Assembly: GCA_018701215.1 (NCBI GenBank)
Contig: JABIWH010000012.1
Location: forward strand, 3,164 to 67,163
Direction of reading: 5' to 3'
DNA from: Rhodospirillaceae bacterium
Lineage (GTDB): Bacteria > Pseudomonadota > Alphaproteobacteria > GCA-2731375
DNA: 64,000 nucleotides
Shown: piece after piece, positions 18,452 through 55,012 of the stretch
Layout of the letters: every line of letters starts with the position of its first letter
How positions within the stretch are numbered: position 1 is the first letter of the stretch
Translations under genes and position numbers: made by a program
Notes under the pieces: generated by a model
Told to the model about the DNA's origin: nothing
Seen by the model: only the letters and a program-made list of their open reading frames with translations
The model's database searches: none

Positions 18452-20061
18452 ACGATCTATCCAGTAAGCGTTTCGGTATGGTGATCGACCTGAACAGCTG
18501 TGTCGGCTGTCAGACCTGCACTATTGCCTGCAAGCATGCCAACGACACTCCGCCCGGCGTACAATGGCGCCGGGTGATCGATGTGGAATTGGGCACCTTC
18601 CCCAACGTGGAACGCCTGTTCATGGTCACCGGCTGTCAGCATTGCGCCGAGCCGTCCTGCGTGCCGGTCTGCCCCACGGGTGCGACCAAGCAACGGGCCG
18701 ACGGCCTGGTCACCATGGACTACGACCTGTGCATCGGCTGCGGCTATTGCGCCGTCGCCTGTCCCTATCAGGCCCGCACCATCGCACACGAGCAAAACTG
18801 GTACTACGGCCAGCCGACGTTGCAGGAAGCCAAGGTGGCCCATGACGACCGCATCGGCGTCGCCATGAAATGCACCTTTTGTGTGGAGCGCGTGGATAGC
18901 GGCCTGGCAAACGGCCTGACGCCCGGCGTGGACCCTGACGCGACGCCCGCCTGCGCCAGTTCATGTATCGCGACGGCGATCCATTTTGGCGATTTCAACG
19001 ATCCCGACAGCAACGTCAGCCAACTGAGCAACGAAGACAACAGCGTTCAGATGCATGCGGAGCTGGGCAATGATCCCGGCATCAAATACCTCTACGGCCT
19101 GCCTAATTCCATGCCGGGGCGGGAACGCACGGCGGACGACGTGGACGAGCTGGCCTTGCAGGACCCCGCCAATCCGTTGGTGGGCAAGGTACAGAAATTT
19201 TGGGACATGCGCGCGGCGATGAATTTTATCCTGGGCGGCATGAGCACGGGCCTGATCATCTCGGCCTGGCTGGCCTATCTGATGGGCGGCATATCGGAAA
19301 GCGCCCTGGTCGGCGTCAATGTGGTGGCCGGCGTGGGCATGGCCGCGGGTTTGTTCTTCGTGTTTTTGGAGATCGCCCGCAAGCTGCGCTTCCTCAATGT
19401 GTTGCTGCGCCCGCAGACGTCCTGGATGACGCGGGAGACCTATGTGGTGGCGCTGTTCTATCCCACCCTGCTGCTGGATCTGCTCTGGCCCAGCGGTGTC
19501 CTGCATCTGTTGCTGGTCATCGAAGCGGCCGCATTCCTCTATTGCCAGGCCCGCATTCTGCCGGCAGGCAAGGGCATCCCCGCCTGGCGCGCGCCGTTGA
19601 TGCCCTGGATGCTGATCGCCACGGGTTTGCTGGAGGGCACGGGCCTGCTAGCTATTTCCGCCACCCTGCATCCAGCGATGCATTCCGTTGCCCCCCTGGC
19701 GGCGGGCATGGGCGGCGCCCTGGCCGTGATCAATGCCATCCTGTGGCGCAACTACATTGCCAACGCGGCCAGCAACGGCATCGGCCCCCTGCCCCGCAAG
19801 GCCCTGGGCGCCATCAACCTACCCCTGCGCCTGATTGGCCACGCCCTGCCCTTGCTGGGCTTCGCCGCCTTCCTCGGCCTATGGCCCACGCAACCCCTGG
19901 TCGCCACGTTGGCGGGCCTGGGCGCCGTGGTCGGCGGCATCATGTGGAAAATCACGGTGATCACCAAAGCCAGCCATCAGCAAGGTTTCAATCTATCAAA
20001 AGTACCGCAGCGCGGTTCCGGCACACGCGCCGCGCCGGCCAGGATGGGCACGACGGCATAG
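18448..20061 (+). CDS. 4Fe-4S ferredoxin-type electron-transfer subunit fused to NrfD/DmsC-like integral-membrane anchor
   Basis: The N-terminal ~250 aa carry four CxxCxxCxxxCP clusters (DmsB/PsrB-like). The C-terminal ~280 aa form about eight hydrophobic helices. The GTG start overlaps the alpha-subunit stop (GTGA). Confidence 0.8.
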   Translation: MNDLSSKRFGMVIDLNSCVGCQTCTIACKHANDTPPGVQWRRVIDVELGTFPNVERLFMVTGCQHCAEPSCVPVCPTGATKQRADGLVTMDYDLCIGCGYCAVACPYQARTIAHEQNWYYGQPTLQEAKVAHDDRIGVAMKCTFCVERVDSGLANGLTPGVDPDATPACASSCIATAIHFGDFNDPDSNVSQLSNEDNSVQMHAELGNDPGIKYLYGLPNSMPGRERTADDVDELALQDPANPLVGKVQKFWDMRAAMNFILGGMSTGLIISAWLAYLMGGISESALVGVNVVAGVGMAAGLFFVFLEIARKLRFLNVLLRPQTSWMTRETYVVALFYPTLLLDLLWPSGVLHLLLVIEAAAFLYCQARILPAGKGIPAWRAPLMPWMLIATGLLEGTGLLAISATLHPAMHSVAPLAAGMGGALAVINAILWRNYIANAASNGIGPLPRKALGAINLPLRLIGHALPLLGFAAFLGLWPTQPLVATLAGLGAVVGGIMWKITVITKASHQQGFNLSKVPQRGSGTRAAPARMGTTA

Positions 20062-20089
20062 GTTCGGGCATGGCGACAGTCGGGGTCTG

Positions 20090-20626
20090 ATGGTAGATCT
20101 CGATATCCCGCAAAATTCGGCGTCATCTGACTACAGGGGTGAGGTTCACAAATTGAATGATTATTGGATTGATATTGCAAGAATTCTGATACCGGGCGCA
20201 CTGATCGCGACTTTATCAGCGATTATCACAGTAAAACTCGCAATTCGTCGGTTTCACGAAGAAAAGTGGTGGGAAAAAAAGGAAGCCGCTTATACGAGTC
20301 TCTTTGAGGTAATGCACCGACTTAAGAATTACGCCGTACAACACTATGAGCAAGAACTCGATCCGGGGAGCTTCTCCAAAGAATATATGAAAGAACTTGA
20401 AGTCGAATGGCAAAAGGCAAGTCGTGAATATGCGAAGCTGCGCGATCTGGCTTCATTTCACCTCAGCGACGGCGCCCTCGCAGTTCTTGAAAAATTTGAC
20501 AATCAGAAGCAAAAAGCTCGAAATAAATTCGACCTATTTCTTTGGATCGAGGGAGACCTTGAGGCTGTGACTGAATGCCTCGAACAACTTAAGTTAGCCG
20601 CAAAAAAGGACCTCAAAGTGCGTTGA
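20090..20626 (+). CDS. hypothetical small membrane-anchored protein (low-GC island)
   Basis: 178 aa with one N-terminal TM helix (IARILIPGALIATLSAIITVKLAI), followed by a charged helical domain. GC is about 45% against ~65% background. A TTG start at 20153 with a GTGAGG RBS is an alternative. Confidence 0.55.
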   Translation: MVDLDIPQNSASSDYRGEVHKLNDYWIDIARILIPGALIATLSAIITVKLAIRRFHEEKWWEKKEAAYTSLFEVMHRLKNYAVQHYEQELDPGSFSKEYMKELEVEWQKASREYAKLRDLASFHLSDGALAVLEKFDNQKQKARNKFDLFLWIEGDLEAVTECLEQLKLAAKKDLKVR

Positions 20627-20801
20627 ATTCATTCTTTTGGGCTGCTGCTACATTTGTTGCCGCAATCCAGAATTCGCACTTCATTTGACGTCGCATTCCA
20701 GATTTCGGGCGATTGATTGCATTGCCCTATCCAGTTCGCGTATAGGGTGGCCTAGGTGCGCTTACATCCGGTGCCAATGCATCAAAGGACAGGTGGGTAC
20801 G

Positions 20802-21797
20802 ATGAAATTCAAGCAACGCACACTTATGCAAATCGCTGATATGATCTGCGGGAATCTTGAGGGAGAAAAAAATCTCTTTCGATATCGAAGCAGTAGTTAT
20901 CTGACGGAATTTTTCCAAGACTGCGATACCGATTATGAGCATGATGGTTCGACGCGCAAGTATTGGGTCGCAGACACACTTTTGAAAATTCTATCTGAAC
21001 CAAACCTCAACGCAAATACGCCTACAGAAACGTTCTCGCGTGTCATTCAGACTCTCATGGATCAAGGAGATGCCGAAAACGAGAATAAGGAGCGAGAGGG
21101 CGCATTGGTCCTGCTAAACACGGCACTCGCCCGCGAGGGCTTTGAAGCCTTTTACGCGCCCGATAAGCAATGCTACTTGCGCCACATTGCGACAAACACG
21201 ATTGTGAGGACCTCACCCAACCCCCATCGTCCTTTTTCAGAGGCGGAAATCATCCAGCGGGAGCTACTAATCGCTTATCTCAACGACGCCTCAGAAGATG
21301 AGTTGATTGAAGAGGTTTTATTGCCCCTCTTTCGCCACCTTGGTTTTCATCGCGTGACGTCTGCCGGGCACAAAGATAAGGCCCTGGAGTACGGCAAAGA
21401 TGTTTGGATGAGGTTTACTTTGCCTACGCAGCACGTTCTTTATTTTGGCATTCAAGCTAAGAAGGGGAAACTGGACGCATCTGGCACAAGCAAAGCGACA
21501 AACGTGAACGTTGCCGAAATCCATAATCAGGTAACGATGATGCTAGGGCATGAGATTTTCGACCCGGAGATCGGCAAGCGCGTCCTAGTTGATCATGCAT
21601 TCATTGTGGCGGGCGGAGAGATCACTAAAGCAGCGCGTAATTGGCTTGGAAATAAGTTGGATGCCACGAAGCGAAGCCAGATCATGTTCATGGACCGAAA
21701 CGACATTCTGGATTTATTTGTTGTCACAAATGTGCCCCTGCCCGATAGAGCCCAGCCGGATACAGCGCCAATCGACGCAGACACAATACCATTTTAA
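20802..21797 (+). CDS. Mrr-like restriction-endonuclease-fold (PD-(D/E)xK) domain protein with uncharacterised N-terminal domain
   Basis: The C-terminal ~150 aa match the Mrr catalytic-domain pattern (LFRHLGFHRVT...GKDVWM...YFGIQAKKGK...IVAGGEITKAARNW). The start at 20802 has an AGGTGGG RBS, and the track's N-terminal extension is rejected. The region is low-GC. Confidence 0.6.
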   Translation: MKFKQRTLMQIADMICGNLEGEKNLFRYRSSSYLTEFFQDCDTDYEHDGSTRKYWVADTLLKILSEPNLNANTPTETFSRVIQTLMDQGDAENENKEREGALVLLNTALAREGFEAFYAPDKQCYLRHIATNTIVRTSPNPHRPFSEAEIIQRELLIAYLNDASEDELIEEVLLPLFRHLGFHRVTSAGHKDKALEYGKDVWMRFTLPTQHVLYFGIQAKKGKLDASGTSKATNVNVAEIHNQVTMMLGHEIFDPEIGKRVLVDHAFIVAGGEITKAARNWLGNKLDATKRSQIMFMDRNDILDLFVVTNVPLPDRAQPDTAPIDADTIPF

Positions 21798-22099
21798 CAA
21801 TTGCAACAGGTCAATAGAAGAAAAGGAAGAAATTAGATCCTGTCTTGAATTTTGAGTTTTTGGGGCAAATTCCGGACAAATTTACGCCGCGCGGCATGGC
21901 AATATCGAGATAAAACACCAACTGCGAACAGGATGGTTCGGGGAACATGTCGCGGACCACATTATTCGGCAAAATTTAGCAATAATTTACCTCCCTCGGC
22001 CATTATATCGCCGTCACCGGGTCGGCTTGCGCTAATTGTTGATGGCCCTCCCGGCGCCAGTTATCCGCGTACGTTGCGCGGCGACGGAGGAAAGTGTGA

Positions 22100-23038: not shown

Positions 23039-23057
23039 AGCGTTTCCGCCGGCGCTA

Positions 23058-23155
23058 GAGCAATTTTCAATTAATCGGAATCGCTCTCGCGACGTAAGTA
23101 ATTGGTTCAATTGCCCGATTCTTAAGAGTCCGAGCGCATTTTTTTCGAATGCGCG
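23058..23155. repeat. conserved palindromic intergenic element, copy A
   Basis: ~95 nt nearly identical to the elements at 53701 and 54094 (GAGCAATTTT.GATTAATC..TCGCTYTCGCGAC..AATTR.TTCAATTGC..TCTTAAGAGTCCGAGCGC). It lies between the convergent ends of the response-regulator and MFS genes. Confidence 0.7.
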
Positions 23156-24499
23156 CTAGTCCTGGCTCTCCATATCGTCGACCAGCTCTGCGAAGCTTTC
23201 CTGCACCGCATCGGCATCGGTATCCGAGGCAGTGACGATTTCCTCCAATTCGATATCCGGGTTCATTGCCACGCTCATCGGCGTCGGGGCCATGGCGACG
23301 AAATCGCCCATATCTTCCGACGCCACCGCCTCGCGCCGCAGGCTGCGCCAGATGGCGAACAGACAGAGCAGCGCCATGGCGCCCGCGATGGTGTAAAAAA
23401 AACCTTTCGGCCCTGCCAGATCCATGGCCAGGGCCGCGATGGGCGCGCCTAAAGCCGAGCCCACCGAGGCGACCAACACCAGGGCACCGCTGGCCGCCAC
23501 CATCTGACTGGGGTTGAGATAGTCGTTGGTATGCGCTGTACAGAGCGCATACAGCGGCGTCGAAAGACCGCCGATCAAGGCGATCACCAGATAGGCCGAC
23601 CAGCTGGCACCGATACCATTGCTCGCCACATCCCCGCCGAAGCCGCCCGCAAAGTTTGGCGCGATAACGGCAACGGCCGCACCGGCCGCGCAGGTTGCGA
23701 TGATGACCCAACGCCGCCCGATAACGTCGGAGGCTTTTCCCAAGGGATATTGCAAAAAGACGCCGCCGAGAACCAAGGCCCCCATGAAAAGCGAGATCTG
23801 TCCCACCGAAAGGCCGATTTCGGCGGCATAAACGGCCCCCATACCGAACACCGCACCCATCATGACACCGTTCATGAACATGCCGGAGACCCCCAGGGGC
23901 GAGACCTGGAACAGCTGACGAATGCCGACATTTTCCGAAGTGTTGAATTCCGGCGCCCGGCTGACCGAGAGCAGAATGGGAATGACGGCGATGGAGACCA
24001 GGACGGAAATCAGCACGAACAATTCGTACGATGAAGGCGCGGCGATGTTCAGCATGAATTGTCCCCCCGCCATGCCGCCCAGGGAGATCAACATATAGAA
24101 GCTGAGCAGTTGCCCACGGGTTTCATTTTCCGAGGCGTCGTTGAGCCAGCTTTCCGCCACGATATACAACCCCGCGTAGGCGATACCGGTCACGCAGCGC
24201 ATAAGCCACCAAACCCAGGGGTCAATGATCACCGCATGCAGCAGGATCGAGGTAGAGGCCAATGACGCCATGGCACCGAAACTGCGGACATGGCCGACCC
24301 TGGTGACGATTTTCGGCACGATCGTGGCGCCGACCAGCATGCCGATGAAATATCCCGACATCACCAATCCGGTAGTGGTGACGCCAAAGCCTTCCATGGA
24401 AGCGCGCAAGCCCAGCAACGAGCCCTGCAAGCCATTGCCCAGCATGATCAGGCCAAGGCCCAGAAACAATGCCCAACTATCGGAGATTACCCGTAGCAC
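23156..24499 (-). CDS. MFS transporter
   Basis: 447 aa with ~12 predicted TM helices and an acidic C-terminal tail. Confidence 0.85.
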   Translation of the reverse strand: MLRVISDSWALFLGLGLIMLGNGLQGSLLGLRASMEGFGVTTTGLVMSGYFIGMLVGATIVPKIVTRVGHVRSFGAMASLASTSILLHAVIIDPWVWWLMRCVTGIAYAGLYIVAESWLNDASENETRGQLLSFYMLISLGGMAGGQFMLNIAAPSSYELFVLISVLVSIAVIPILLSVSRAPEFNTSENVGIRQLFQVSPLGVSGMFMNGVMMGAVFGMGAVYAAEIGLSVGQISLFMGALVLGGVFLQYPLGKASDVIGRRWVIIATCAAGAAVAVIAPNFAGGFGGDVASNGIGASWSAYLVIALIGGLSTPLYALCTAHTNDYLNPSQMVAASGALVLVASVGSALGAPIAALAMDLAGPKGFFYTIAGAMALLCLFAIWRSLRREAVASEDMGDFVAMAPTPMSVAMNPDIELEEIVTASDTDADAVQESFAELVDDMESQD

Positions 24500-53293: not shown

Positions 53294-53551
53294 CTAGTTT
53301 TTCTTGGCAGCGCAAGGATTGCAGGGGCTGCAAGCCTTTTTCGCGGCACAGGGATTGCAGGCGCCACAACCTTTTTTCTTGGCGGCGCAGGGATTACAGG
53401 CACCGCAGCCTTTTTTCGCGGCACAGGGATTGCAGGATTTCGCCGCCGGCGCGCAAGACGCCAGGGCGCTTGGCAGGGTCGCGGTCGCGGTCATCGCCGC
53501 AATGGCGACGGAGCCGAGGACGATTTTTACTCTAGCGGTCGGGTTTGACAT
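53294..53551 (-). CDS. secreted cysteine-rich repeat mini-protein
   Basis: GGAGG RBS and a signal peptide ending ALA|S. The mature ~54 aa consist of four tandem C-x-x-C-N-P-C-A-A-K-K units. The repeats are also visible at the DNA level (53330-53440). Confidence 0.6.
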   Translation of the reverse strand: MSNPTARVKIVLGSVAIAAMTATATLPSALASCAPAAKSCNPCAAKKGCGACNPCAAKKKGCGACNPCAAKKACSPCNPCAAKKN

Positions 53552-53700
53552 TTTATTGGCCTCCAAATCAGATCTCTAAGGTCGGTTTTTTTTCATGACT
53601 ACGCAGGTGCAATTTGGCTGGTCCCTTGGGACAACGCCAATCACTTGCGATCACGAGACCTTGAGCGGAGGCCGCGGCTGCCAGAGCGGGTCGAAAATTG

Positions 53701-53797
53701 GAGCAATTTTTGATTAATCAGGGTCGCTTTCGCGACTTAAGCAATTAATTCAATTGCGCTCTCTTAAAAGTCTGAGCGCTTTCGCTTCCGATGCGCC
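53701..53797. repeat. conserved palindromic intergenic element, copy B
   Basis: Same ~95-nt family as 23058 and 54094. It lies between the 49-aa ORF and the Cys-rich gene. Confidence 0.7.
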
Positions 53798-53947
53798 CTA
53801 ACGGCCGACGCGGGCTTCCAGCATCTGGGCGGAAAGGCTGATGCCCTTGGCCACGGGGTGCTCGGTTGCGTACAGCGGGCACGTGGCCTGGTTGGTTTCC
53901 TGACCCAGCCGCGAAATCATCATGGCAATTTGCTTTACCAGTTTCAT
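53798..53947 (-). CDS. small ORF (49 aa), hypothetical; not in supplied ORF track
   Basis: ATG at 53947 with AGGA 9 nt upstream. It encodes MKLVKQIAMMISRLGQETNQATCPLYATEHPVAKGISLSAQMLEARVGR and is flanked by element copies C (5') and B (3'). Confidence 0.4.
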   Translation of the reverse strand: MKLVKQIAMMISRLGQETNQATCPLYATEHPVAKGISLSAQMLEARVGR

Positions 53948-54093
53948 GGTCTTGTCCTAGCGATCTAATTGGTGGTTTCGGCTGCGCGGCTGCCGCATCG
54001 CCTTTTGTCACGAGGGTGAGATAGGCCTGCTTGGGTGCCGGGACAATTGCAAAAATTAGAGGCTAGGCATGCGCTGCCCGCATGGCTTTATTT

Positions 54094-54180
54094 GAGCAAT
54101 TTTTGATTAATTCGGAGTCGCTTTCGCGACTTAGACTATTGATTCAATTGCTCTTTTCTTATGAGTTTGAGCATGCTTTA
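54094..54180. repeat. conserved palindromic intergenic element, copy C
   Basis: Same family as the other two copies. It lies between the SDR stop (54203) and the 49-aa ORF. Confidence 0.7.
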
Positions 54181-54202
54181 AAGAAACACTCTCTAAGAAA
54201 TT

Positions 54203-55012
54203 CTAAAGACCCATGCCGCCATCGGCATGGATGGTTTGGCCGGTGATATAGGCGGCATCGGGCGAGAGCAGGAATTCAATCAGGGCCGCGATTTCATCAG
54301 GCTGGCCCAGGCGCCCCAGGGGAATACGCTCGGCGGCCCGGCGCCAGCTTTCCGCATTCAAGGCGGCATGCGCGCCTGCCTGTTTCTGGACATAGCCGGG
54401 CGCAACACAGTTCACCGTCACGCCATGGGGTGCCAGGTCCACCGCCAGGGCGCGGGCCAGGGCTTCCAACCCCGCCTTGGCCGCGGCGCTTGCCGGCATC
54501 GACACGCCATCAAGTTGAAACCGATGCGCCACAAACGAAGATACCGCCACCACCCGGCCCACCTCGGCGGCCTGCAACAAAGGCATGGCGGCCCGGCAAA
54601 GGCGGTGAAAGCCGCCGGTTATGGCCGCCAGGCTGTGCGCCAGGGCATCATCTTCCAAACTTGCCAAGGGCGTTTTGTCGGCGAAACCGGCGTTGGCGAC
54701 CAAACCGTCCAAACGGCCTTCGCTTGCCACCGATGCAATCAGGTCCGCGGCAACGCCTGTATCGGCCAGATCACCTAACAATAAATGGCTCCGTCCGCCC
54801 TTGGCCTCGACCGCCCTGGCGACCTCTTCGGCACCCGTCCGGTTGGCACGGGTGTGGATGAACAACGTGATATCCGGTGCGGCCAGACGCCGGCATAAAG
54901 CCGCGCCAATCCCGCTGGCCGCGCCGGTCACCAGGATTGTACGGTTCCGATTTTCATTTTGTGGGTTCAATCTGGCAATCTCCCTGCGGCAAGTCGTTGC
55001 TAAATGCCGCAA
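54203..55012 (-). CDS. SDR family oxidoreductase
   Basis: TGAASGIGAAL Rossmann motif. The track start is a TTG, and an in-frame TTG at 54970 with an AGGGAG RBS is an alternative. Confidence 0.8.
   Translation of the reverse strand: MRHLATTCRREIARLNPQNENRNRTILVTGAASGIGAALCRRLAAPDITLFIHTRANRTGAEEVARAVEAKGGRSHLLLGDLADTGVAADLIASVASEGRLDGLVANAGFADKTPLASLEDDALAHSLAAITGGFHRLCRAAMPLLQAAEVGRVVAVSSFVAHRFQLDGVSMPASAAAKAGLEALARALAVDLAPHGVTVNCVAPGYVQKQAGAHAALNAESWRRAAERIPLGRLGQPDEIAALIEFLLSPDAAYITGQTIHADGGMGL

What the first reader, a model, noticed from the sequence alone, without database searches (positions are those of the whole stretch)
53701..54180. Family of ~95-nt conserved palindromic intergenic elements (three copies in 64 kb), two of them bracketing a tiny ORF
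Three intergenic segments (23058-23155, 53701-53797, 54094-54180) share a nearly identical ~85-95-nt sequence, GAGCAATTTT(T)GATTAATC-GG.GTCGCTTTCGCGAC-TTA..AATT..TTCAATTGC-CTCTTAA.AGTC.GAGCGC. The consensus is a long imperfect inverted repeat. An outer stem GAGCAATT/AATTGCTC and an inner stem GATTAAT/ATTAATT flank a perfect GTCGC-TTTC-GCGAC hairpin tip. Copy A adds a second hairpin (AGCGCATT-TTTTTCG-AATGCGC). Copy B contains the palindrome TGATTAATCA. This looks like a REP/MITE-like palindromic unit or a structured RNA (sRNA, attenuator or terminator) family. Copies C and B sit immediately 5' and 3' of an untracked 49-aa ORF, upstream of the Cys-rich secreted gene. A ligand- or protein-responsive regulatory RNA is therefore also conceivable.
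Basis: seen in the sequence. Interest (0 to 1): 0.6.

Follow-up and report, generated by a model that had tools for sequence, protein, structure and literature searches.

The report
Small mobile repeat at gene ends
The three repeats are old copies of a roughly 100-base mobile DNA element with no genes of its own (a MITE-type repeat) that is scattered through a small group of marine low-oxygen Alphaproteobacteria, usually beside stop codons. It is a new family of a familiar kind, not a regulatory RNA.

Summary
Three AT-rich copies (cores 23058-23156, 53701-53798, 54094-54193, all on the + strand) share one ~100-nt architecture: a 58-nt hairpin, a 15-nt linker and a 25-nt hairpin. A genome-collection scan found the same element only in nine related marine Alphaproteobacteria/Rhodospirillaceae MAG species. 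There were 126 hits in about 0.74 Mb, roughly one per 20 kb. Conservation stops abruptly at (Y)TA|GAGC...GCTC|TA(G).

Orthologous sites in sister species lack the element and carry a single TA. At the site of the third copy, two lineages have independent insertions 9 nt apart, and a third species has the clean empty site. The best reading is a non-autonomous transposable element that duplicates a TA target, like RUP with IS630. The transposase was not found, so the enzyme is inferred.

In 40% of copies a junction TA(G) is the stop codon of a neighbouring gene. The element's G...C ends regenerate TAG. Nothing supports a strand-specific RNA. There is no Rfam hit, no G-U/A-C asymmetry, mixed orientation, no terminator-like tail and no positional conservation between species.

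The 49-aa ORF is a real lineage-restricted gene. Its being bracketed by two copies is coincidental. This is a new member of a known kind, of modest interest.

The parts
23058..23156 (+). Copy 1 core (99 nt): hairpin 1 at 23058-23116, linker at 23117-23131, hairpin 2 at 23132-23156. It is flanked by TA at 23056-23057 and 23157-23158.
   Evidence: nhmmer E = 4e-26. Coordinates come from alignment A2. The copy is present in all six contigs of the same population and absent from the sister species L094-L098.
23156..23158 (-). Stop codon (TAG) of the MFS transporter gene 23156-24499. It is made of the last base of copy 1 plus the right-hand TA.
   Evidence: The sister species have the stop at the same position (CTA on the + strand) with no element.
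53701..53798 (+). Copy 2 core (98 nt): hairpin 1 at 53701-53759, hairpin 2 (degenerate) at 53774-53798. The left flank is TG (53699-53700) and the right flank is TA (53799-53800).
   Evidence: nhmmer E = 5.5e-25. The copy is absent at the orthologous place in L099, L126 and L125, which keep the 49-aa gene.
53798..53947 (-). 49-aa gene (MKLVKQIAMMISRLGQETNQATCPLYATEHPVAKGISLSAQMLEARVGR). Its stop codon is the junction of copy 2. It is not part of the element.
   Evidence: Called as a 49-aa gene in four species. Against L099 there are 7 synonymous and 4 conservative changes, and the ORF is 93% identical against 73% for the upstream spacer. Only one 50%-identity cluster exists among 1.8 billion representatives. 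There is no Pfam match.
54094..54193 (+). Copy 3 core (100 nt): hairpin 1 at 54094-54153, hairpin 2 (degenerate, GCATG type) at 54169-54193. The right flank is TA at 54194-54195. On the left, TA at 54089-54090 is followed by three extra T.
   Evidence: nhmmer E = 7e-24. The empty site is seen in L126. L099 has an independent insertion of another subfamily 9 nt away.
54203..54205 (-). Stop codon (TAG) of the SDR gene 54203-55012, 7 nt beyond the TA flanking copy 3. In L099 this same TA is the insertion site.
23039..23055 (+). 17-nt piece AGCGTTTCCGCCGGCGC lying between the response-regulator stop TAG and the TA of copy 1. It may be a remnant with GAGCG...GCGC ends. This is uncertain.
   Evidence: Seen in the sequence. 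The sister species have a TAA stop and an unrelated spacer here. Not tested further.

Best explanation
The three segments are copies of a ~100-bp non-coding mobile element of the bacterial MITE type. Its consensus is (Y)TA | GAGCAATTTTCAATTAATYGGAGTCGCTNTCGCGACTTAAGTRATTGGTTCAATTGCTC - TATTYTTAAGAGTCY - GAGCGCATTTTCTTCGAATGCGCTC (or GAGCATGTTTCGAAGAAACATGCTC) | TA(G).

It most likely moves when a transposase encoded elsewhere in the genome recognises its GAGC.../...GCTC hairpin ends and inserts it into a TA dinucleotide, preferably in Y-TA-G. The TA is duplicated, as in IS630/Tc1-mariner elements and their MITEs such as RUP. Because the element begins with G and ends with C, both junctions read TAG going inward. 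An insertion into the TA of a TAG or TAA stop codon therefore leaves the neighbouring gene with a TAG stop at the same position. That makes gene ends harmless landing sites.

The window's copies are old (about 72% identical to each other), fixed in their population and independently acquired. The pair around the 49-aa gene is a coincidence of two such insertions.

Shown here: copy number, boundaries, TA flanks, empty sites, the association with stop codons, and the lack of signs of an RNA function. Inferred: the enzyme class and whether the element is still active.
For: Copy number and host range: a 21-base core pattern matched 87 stretches in 185,579 species genomes. All 80 stretches listed by the tool are from nine related marine Alphaproteobacteria/Rhodospirillaceae MAGs. 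A profile search of those loci plus the window found 126 copies, 115 of them full length, in about 0.74 Mb.

Sharp ends: column conservation rises from 0 to near maximum at TA|GAGC and falls back to 0 after GCTC|TAG.

Insertion polymorphism with a single TA at empty sites:
- Copy 1: the sister species have ...ccgCTAttcctg where the window has ...gcgCTA[99 nt]TAgtcctg. The intergenic spacers are 43-46 nt against 117 nt.
- Copy 2 is absent in L099, L126 and L125.
- Copy 3: L126 has the empty site cttTAGactttctTAAGA. The window has an insertion at the second TA. L099 has a different-subfamily insertion at the TA of the stop codon.
- Among the MAG loci, 5 of 8 between-species comparisons are clear empties.

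Flanks: the Y-TA ... TA-G context holds even for the 65 copies not at stop codons.

Stop codons: 44 of 109 copies have a junction TA(G) used as a neighbouring gene's stop, against 11.6% expected from the available TA sites (p = 2e-14). One TAA-to-TAG conversion is seen, L054 (empty) against L056 (filled).

Further support: identity among copies within a genome differs between hosts (0.88 in BS150m-G9, up to 0.99; 0.72 in the window), consistent with bursts of amplification at different times. In the literature, IS630 targets the TA in CTAG, ISY100 duplicates TA, and the 107-bp RUP has TA targets and is thought to be mobilised by IS630-Spn1.
Against: No autonomous partner was found.
- There is no multi-copy or transposase-like protein in the ~0.74 Mb sampled.
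- A metagenome scan for the element's left end followed by non-element sequence found only one case, and that is an unrelated IS5-family IS abutting a truncated copy.

The terminal inverted repeat is minimal: 4 bp perfect, and 9 of 11 in one subfamily.

Sequence alone cannot tell a duplicated TA from an element that carries its own 3' TA and inserts 3' of a YTA target, which is the IS200/IS605 or REP/RAYT style. The flank preference is mildly asymmetric (left C 57% / T 33%, right G 83% / A 14%), which a symmetric TA duplication does not predict.

Tandem arrays have 2-nt spacers that are not TA. Copies 3 and L099 have 2-3 extra bases between the TA and the left end.

No presence/absence polymorphism was seen within a population, so current mobility is not shown.
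Confidence: 0.8

Rival explanations
1. It is a hairpin element moved as single-stranded DNA by an HUH/Y1 enzyme, either REP/REPIN with a RAYT or an IS200/IS605-derived palindromic element. The two terminal hairpins are the recognition structures. The left YTA is the target, the right CTA belongs to the element, and there is no target duplication.
For: Both ends are hairpins whose feet are the element's ends, and each is headed by (C)TA on its own strand, so the unit looks like two inverted hairpin modules. The inverted terminal repeat is only 4-11 bp. Hairpin 2 exists in two forms that differ by three consecutive compensatory pairs. One subfamily has a hairpin-preserving insertion in the tip of hairpin 1. 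Direct tandem arrays exist. Flank preferences are asymmetric. No DDE partner was found.
Against: There is no GTAG head, and the hairpins are long and AT-rich, unlike REPs. The hairpins abut the ends instead of being subterminal as in IS200/IS605. Neighbouring copies on one contig are as often opposed as co-oriented (14 vs 13), unlike the strand-biased IS200/IS605 elements. No Y1 transposase gene was seen next to any copy, though this was not searched rigorously. TA lies on both sides against a single TA at empty sites, which is the textbook signature of a TA duplication.
Confidence: 0.12
2. It is primarily a functional structured RNA module, such as a 3'-end stabiliser, terminator, sRNA or cis-regulator, that has spread through the genome. 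The copies around the 49-aa ORF would regulate that ORF or the Cys-rich gene.
For: 92% of stem positions are paired across 109 copies, and there is covariation in hairpin 2. Copies are enriched in convergent intergenic regions (35% vs 21% of gene pairs) and at gene 3' ends. Copy 3 folds much better than shuffled sequence (z = -4). MITEs in other bacteria are known to be co-opted as RNA elements (review PMC10969869).
Against: There is no Rfam match at any threshold. Orientation relative to the upstream gene is not fixed (29 co-oriented vs 18 opposed in tandem gene pairs). There is no G:U over A:C excess. No terminator-like sites fall within the window copies. Copies 1 and 2 fold no better than shuffles (z = -1.2 to -1.8). 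The elements are not conserved at orthologous sites in sister species that keep the same genes. The covariation comes down to a few subfamily-founding events.
Confidence: 0.07
3. It is a chance similarity or an assembly artefact.
For: None beyond the fact that all carriers are metagenome-assembled genomes.
Against: E-values are about 1e-24. The same copies recur in independent assemblies from NCBI, ENA and JGI samples. There are 126 copies across nine MAG species.
Confidence: 0.01

Closest known systems
RUP (repeat unit of pneumococcus), the 107-bp MITE of Streptococcus pneumoniae thought to be mobilised by IS630-Spn1
   Same: Size is about 100 bp and copy number about 100 per genome. It is intergenic and non-coding, its insertions are flanked by TA, and it is presumed to be mobilised in trans (PMC2229807).
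   Different: There is no sequence similarity. RUP's terminal repeats match a known IS in the same genome, whereas no partner was found here and the terminal repeat is only 4-11 bp. RUP tends to land in IS elements, while this family lands at gene ends and stop codons. The host is an uncultured marine alphaproteobacterial lineage.
IS630 / IS870 / ISY100 (IS630-Tc1-mariner transposons)
   Same: They insert into TA and duplicate it. IS630 prefers the TA within CTAG. IS870 uses the TAG of its CTAG target as a stop codon. The Y-TA-G flanks and the TAG junctions here follow the same logic.
   Different: Those are autonomous ~1.1-kb elements that encode a DDE transposase. No such gene or matching ends were found here. 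With IS870 the stop codon serves the IS's own ORF, whereas here it serves the host's neighbouring genes.
Correia/CREE (Neisseria) and ERIC/IRU (enterobacteria) MITEs
   Same: They are 100-150-bp elements flanked by TA that form hairpins and sit near gene ends, where they can affect transcripts (own knowledge; Correia and related elements are reviewed in PMC2229807 and PMC3184786).
   Different: Those fold as one long hairpin formed by their two ends. This element has two separate hairpins, one at each end. There is no sequence similarity, and no IHF site or promoter was identified here.
REP / REPIN / BIME elements with RAYT transposases
   Same: They are many-copy intergenic palindromes, paired hairpin modules in inverted orientation, and occur in tandem arrays (PMC2817692 listed; own knowledge).
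   Different: REPs are 20-40 nt, GC-rich, headed by GTAG and lack target duplications. Here the hairpins are 58 and 25 nt, AT-rich, headed by (C)TA-GAGC, and TA lies on both sides.
RIMEs, Sm-repeats and CIR repeats of Alphaproteobacteria
   Same: They are intergenic mosaic repeats of about 100 nt, made of two palindromes, in alphaproteobacterial genomes, with no known function (PMC2573895; PMC2229807).
   Different: They occur in different hosts (Rhizobiaceae, Caulobacter). No sequence comparison was possible with these tools. Their mobility and target sites are not established.

Membership tests
Bacterial MITE (non-autonomous DNA transposon) | Short (under ~300 bp), with no transposase gene | tested here: met
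   Cores are 98-100 nt. The consensus is too short for a gene.
Bacterial MITE (non-autonomous DNA transposon) | Many dispersed copies with sharp common boundaries | tested here: met
   126 copies in ~0.74 Mb. Conservation drops to zero outside TA|GAGC...GCTC|TA.
Bacterial MITE (non-autonomous DNA transposon) | Target-site duplication, seen as one copy at empty sites | tested here: met
   TA lies on both sides against a single TA in the orthologous empty sites of sister species. Caveat: sequence alone cannot exclude an element-borne 3' TA.
Bacterial MITE (non-autonomous DNA transposon) | Terminal inverted repeats | tested here: inconclusive
   Only GAGC/GCTC is perfect. The match is 9/11 in the GCATG subfamily and 6/11 in the GCGCAT subfamily (read from the consensus).
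Bacterial MITE (non-autonomous DNA transposon) | A cognate autonomous IS with matching ends in the same genomes | tested here: inconclusive
   Not found in the ~0.74 Mb sampled or in a metagenome scan for the left end. Whole carrier genomes could not be scanned.
IS630/Tc1-mariner-mobilised MITE (RUP-like) | Insertion into TA with a 2-bp duplication; CTAG preference in the IS630 lineage | tested here: met
   Flanks are Y-TA ... TA-G in 109 copies, and the empty sites agree. A 4-bp duplication is excluded, because the left Y is C in 57% and T in 33% of copies while the right C is 94%.
IS630/Tc1-mariner-mobilised MITE (RUP-like) | Ends resembling those of an IS630-family element; transposase with HTH and DDE domains in the host | tested here: inconclusive
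   No IS630-like gene was found in the sampled loci.
REP/REPIN (RAYT-associated) | 20-40-nt GC-rich imperfect palindrome with a conserved 5' GTAG | tested here: not met
   The hairpins are 58 and 25 nt, the element is 36-45% GC, and the head is (C)TA-GAGC.
REP/REPIN (RAYT-associated) | A RAYT gene flanked by the repeats | not tested
   No profile scan of all locus proteins was possible. No multi-copy protein lies near the copies.
IS200/IS605-derived palindromic elements | Strand-specific insertion, so copies on one replichore are co-oriented | tested here: not met
   Adjacent non-tandem copies on the same contig: 14 co-oriented and 13 opposed.
Described structured RNA family (Rfam) | A match to a curated covariance model | tested here: not met
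   0 hits at gathering score in the window. Nothing overlaps the elements at E <= 1 in three consensus-rich loci. Only noise appears at E <= 5 around the finding.
Intrinsic terminator | GC-rich stem-loop followed by a T run, oriented with the upstream gene | tested here: not met
   No terminator-like site falls within any of the three window copies. Orientation to the upstream gene is mixed.

The most novel reading that the evidence does not exclude
The element is a stop-codon-homing mobile repeat. Its G...C ends are an adaptation that lets it land in the TA of TAG or TAA stop codons while rewriting them as TAG. Its long activity, together with that of shorter relatives sharing the same GAGC/GCTC ends, would then have helped make TAG the commonest stop codon in this lineage (41-47% of stops). 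It may be driven by an enzyme other than an IS630-type transposase, since none was found and the ends are hairpins rather than long inverted repeats.
Probability: 0.12. Interest if true: 0.6.

Novelty: new member of a known kind. Interest (0 to 1): 0.3.

Why it matters
The finding adds an undescribed MITE family from uncultured Alphaproteobacteria of marine low-oxygen waters (Black Sea, Caspian Sea, Saanich Inlet, Arabian Sea), a group for which no small mobile repeats appear to have been described.

In practice, the elements explain AT-rich 'conserved intergenic motifs' that could otherwise be annotated as sRNAs or riboswitches. They can break or confuse assemblies, and they give presence/absence markers for separating closely related populations.

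Biologically, the one notable point is the tight link with stop codons. Forty per cent of copies supply or share a neighbour's TAG, and one TAA-to-TAG conversion was observed. This happens in genomes where TAG is unusually the most frequent stop. The case shows cleanly how a transposon's end sequence can make gene ends safe landing sites.

Tried and rejected
1. Parent IS. I looked for orphan element ends in the loci, for multi-copy proteins, and ran tblastn with an IS630 transposase sequence recalled from memory (its one marginal hit, in L047, is a response-regulator gene read on the wrong strand). A metagenome scan for the 20-nt left end followed by non-element sequence gave AT-rich chance hits, indel variants of the element, and L113. 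In L113 a 452-aa IS5-family transposase (DUF772 + DDE_Tnp_1) follows the element's left end. Full copies of that IS (L122-L124) have their own ends (AGTCGTCTGTTAA... / ...TTAACAGMCGACT) and unrelated flanks. So L113 is an IS inserted into or beside a copy, not the parent.

2. A 4-bp (IS5-type YTAR) or 3-bp duplication is rejected. The left Y and the right C do not match in about a third of the copies, and the empty TTA site in L054 becomes CTA at the right junction of L056.

3. Correlated non-TA flanks, which would have proved a duplication. Left and right non-TA flanks are independent (17 observed, 15.9 expected), so this test is uninformative.

4. Decayed elements behind TAG stops. There is no excess of AGC after TAG (5.4% vs 6.5% after TAA).

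5. A second family of short TA|GAGC...GCTC|TA palindromes. Only 5 were found against ~2 expected, so this is anecdotal.

6. Similar DNA in plasmid records and the core pattern in viral contigs: nothing found.

7. RNAalifold run on its own predicted only hairpin 2 and an odd small helix. The two-hairpin structure was then tested explicitly.

8. Empty sites among the MAG loci at 80-85% identity were often too diverged in the spacers to give clean junctions. The cleaner cases came from protein-anchored look-ups.

Full report
**1. The observation.**
The three segments are real and homologous. A profile built from them finds exactly those three places in the 64-kb window (E = 4e-26, 5.5e-25, 6.8e-24). 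The next best hit has E = 0.69. All three lie on the + strand and are AT-rich, 36-45% GC against 60% for the window.

Family-wide conservation and the 109-copy alignment A2 put the cores at 23058-23156, 53701-53798 and 54094-54193. Each core has a 58-nt hairpin 1 (GAGCAATT...AATTGCTC, tip AGTCGC-TNTC-GCGACT), a ~15-nt linker containing TTAAGAG, and a 25-nt hairpin 2. The 'extra' hairpin of the first copy is therefore part of the consensus. It is degenerate in the other two copies.

**2. A dispersed family restricted to one clade.**
I scanned one genome from each of 185,579 species with a 21-base core pattern. It matched 87 stretches, and all 80 listed are from nine marine Alphaproteobacteria/Rhodospirillaceae MAG species. 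These come from the Black Sea at 150 m, the Caspian Sea at 150 m, Saanich Inlet, the Arabian Sea and similar samples.

- A profile search of those loci plus the window gave 126 copies, 115 of them full length. Beyond the seeding copies this is roughly one per 20 kb, the same density as in the window.
- Nothing similar turned up in viral contigs or plasmid records.
- The window's own organism is an abundant population also assembled as GCA_018649745.1, GCA_018694955.1 and GCA_018657215.1. It is not among the species representatives that were scanned.

**3. Anatomy of the ends.**
Information content is zero in the flanks. It rises abruptly at (Y)TA|GAGC and falls abruptly after GCTC|TA(G).

- On the left, the base before TA is C in 57% and T in 33% of copies.
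- The first element base is G in 98% and the last is C in 94%.
- The base after the right TA is G in 83%.
- The same context holds for the 65 copies that are not at stop codons.

Hairpin 2 comes in two forms, GAGCGCAT...ATGCGCTC and GAGCATGTT...AACATGCTC. They differ by three consecutive compensatory pairs, and different hosts favour different forms.

**4. Mobility: empty sites.**

*Copy 1.* All six contigs of the window's population carry it. Two sister species (response regulator 81% and 78% identical) have a 43-46-nt spacer with no element. One of these sisters carries the family elsewhere in its genome. The MFS stop codon (CTA on the + strand) is at the same place in all of them. The empty site reads ...ccgCTAttcctg and the filled site reads ...gcgCTA[99 nt]TAgtcctg.

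*Copy 2.* L099 (SDR 88% identical), L126 (85%) and L125 (83%) all keep the 49-aa gene with its TAG stop. None has an element after it.

*Copy 3.* L126 shows the empty site, cttTAGactttctTAAGActgccATGCGG. The window has an insertion at the second TA, cttTAGaatttctTA[element]..TAaagccATGCGG. L099 has a degenerate copy of a different subfamily at the TA of the SDR stop codon, cttTA[element]..TAGaatttctTAAGGcagcaATGCGG. So two lineages were hit independently, 9 nt apart.

*MAG loci.* Five of eight between-species comparisons at element sites are clear empties, shorter by about 60-107 nt.

Within populations (99.9-100% identical flanks) no presence/absence polymorphism was seen. The window copies are only ~72% identical to each other, whereas copies in BS150m-G9 average 88% and reach 99%. 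The window copies are therefore old, and other hosts had more recent bursts.

**5. Stop codons.**
Using my own codon-usage gene caller, 104 of the 115 full-length copies are intergenic. In 44 of the 109 aligned copies a junction TA(G) is the stop codon of a flanking gene. In 29 cases the stop is on the left, in 19 on the right, and in 4 on both. Only 11.6% of the TA sites available in spacers and stop codons are stop-codon TAs (p = 2e-14).

Because the element starts with G and ends with C, both junctions read TAG going inward, so a hit in TAG or TAA preserves a stop in place. One conversion is visible. The empty site in L054 has TTA (a TAA stop on the other strand), and the filled site in L056 has CTA (TAG).

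In the window, the MFS gene and the 49-aa gene both end in such junction codons. Genes ending near elements use TAG in 70% of cases. Unexpectedly, TAG is also the commonest stop far from elements, at 41-42%. I found no trace of decayed elements behind those TAGs. The simplest reading is that TAG-rich gene ends offer many preferred, harmless targets.

**6. Is it an RNA?**
- Rfam gives nothing at gathering score in the window, nothing overlapping the elements at E <= 1 in three loci with nine consensus-like copies, and only noise at E <= 5 around the finding.
- The two-hairpin structure is well kept, with 92% of cells paired, but the covariation is concentrated in the two hairpin-2 subfamilies.
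- G:T and A:C mismatches in the stems are about equally common (158 vs 130), so neither strand is favoured as an RNA.
- Orientation relative to neighbouring genes is mixed (convergent 34, co-oriented 29, opposed 18, divergent 15). Orientation between neighbouring copies is mixed too (14 vs 13).
- No terminator-like site falls within the window copies.
- Two of the three window copies fold no better than shuffled sequence.
- Positions are not conserved between species.

A secondary, co-opted effect on transcripts cannot be excluded, but it is not what defines the family.

**7. Mechanism.**
Three features are the signature of TA-duplicating DDE transposition: TA on both sides against one TA at empty sites, a Y-TA-G context, and dispersed copies in both orientations. 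IS630 inserts into the TA of CTAG, ISY100 duplicates TA, and the 107-bp RUP of pneumococcus is the classic MITE of this kind. IS870 even uses the TAG of its CTAG target as a stop codon.

The enzyme here is inferred, not shown. No transposase with matching ends was found. The one promising metagenome hit, L113, turned out to be an unrelated IS5-family element next to a truncated copy.

Several points keep an HUH-type hairpin-recognising mechanism alive as a minority rival. The inverted terminal repeat is only 4-11 bp. Each end is instead a hairpin. Flank preferences are mildly asymmetric. Tandem arrays have 2-nt spacers that are not TA. Two copies have 2-3 extra bases at the left junction. Against this rival are the mixed orientation, the lack of a GTAG head and the hairpins abutting the ends.

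**8. The tiny ORF and the bracket.**
The 49-aa ORF is called as a gene in four species. It differs from L099 by 7 synonymous and 4 conservative changes, and it is more conserved (93%) than its upstream spacer (73%). It has no Pfam match and forms a single cluster among 1.8 billion representatives. It is a real but lineage-restricted small gene.

A more distant relative, L103, lacks both the ORF and the elements. The two flanking copies were acquired separately. Copy 2 is found only in the window's species, and copy 3 sits at a different TA from the copy in L099. The bracket therefore has no regulatory meaning that the evidence supports.

**9. Verdict.**
This is a previously undescribed MITE family of a known kind, with a neat stop-codon-compatible end design and an unidentified transposase.

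| Claim | Confidence |
|---|---|
| Non-autonomous mobile element | about 0.8 |
| IS630-like, TA-duplicating mechanism specifically | about 0.5 |
| Interest score | 0.3 |

Noticed in passing
window-wide and loci L001-L087: TAG is the most frequent stop codon in this lineage: 26 TAG, 18 TAA and 12 TGA in the window, 41% TAG among genes far from any element, and 42% among ORFs of at least 300 aa. To my knowledge this is unusual for bacteria, where TAG is normally the rarest stop. The cause is unknown.
   Followed up: partly
window 20000-22000: A low-GC island (45-50% against 60-68% in the flanks) holds two ORFs with no Pfam family on record (20090-20626 and 20637-21797). It lies between the Fer4 protein gene and the response-regulator gene. 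The sister species L094-L097 have only ~230 nt there, so it looks like a recent insertion.
   Followed up: partly
window ~53575-53670 (minus strand), upstream of the Cys-rich gene 53294-53566: A conserved leader, CTCAAGGTCTCGTGATCGCAAGTGATTGGC, is followed by the hairpin TTGTCCCAAGGGAC. It is kept in L099 and L126 and partly in L103, although the surrounding spacer diverges. It contains a direct GTGAT...GTGAT repeat. It may be an operator or a leader RNA. There was no Rfam hit.
   Followed up: partly
window 53294-53566 (-); L065:580-1662: The 90-aa secreted protein is built from C-N-P-C-A-A-K-K repeats and has only a weak sub-threshold zf-CXXC match. The repeat number varies between species (71, 83 and 90 aa). 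The same repeats occur in a 360-aa protein that carries a CXXCH haem motif.
   Followed up: no
L113:1-1557; L122:2320-3880: An IS5-family insertion sequence (DUF772 + DDE_Tnp_1, 448-454 aa, ends AGTCGTCTGTTAA / TTAACAGMCGACT) is very widespread in metagenomes, mostly as ~1.5-2-kb contigs. In L113 it abuts a truncated copy of the repeat.
   Followed up: yes
L108:3279-3374, L116:1193-1285, L117:7567-7662, L121:334-426: A subfamily of the repeat carries a 12-14-nt palindromic insertion in the tip of hairpin 1 (GTCGCC-ACCAAAGCTTATTTGG-CGCGAC). The insertion lengthens the hairpin rather than breaking it.
   Followed up: no
L057:3515-3832, L008:7645-7861, L084:2472-2681: In head-to-tail tandem arrays of the repeat, the copies are separated by exactly 2 nt that are not TA (AG, CA, CT). 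In two independent arrays the downstream copy starts GGGC instead of GAGC. This is unexplained.
   Followed up: no
L043:544, L076:7481, L077:4266, L082:1462, L009:6707: There are short (33-47 nt) palindromes with the same TA|GAGC...GCTC|TA ends. Some sit between convergent stop codons, and one is an internal-deletion derivative of the main family. There are too few to call a family (5 found, ~2 expected).
   Followed up: partly
L045:1181-1394 (-): A cobalamin riboswitch (RF00174, 86.6 bits) lies in one of the Black Sea MAG loci. It is unrelated to the finding.
   Followed up: no
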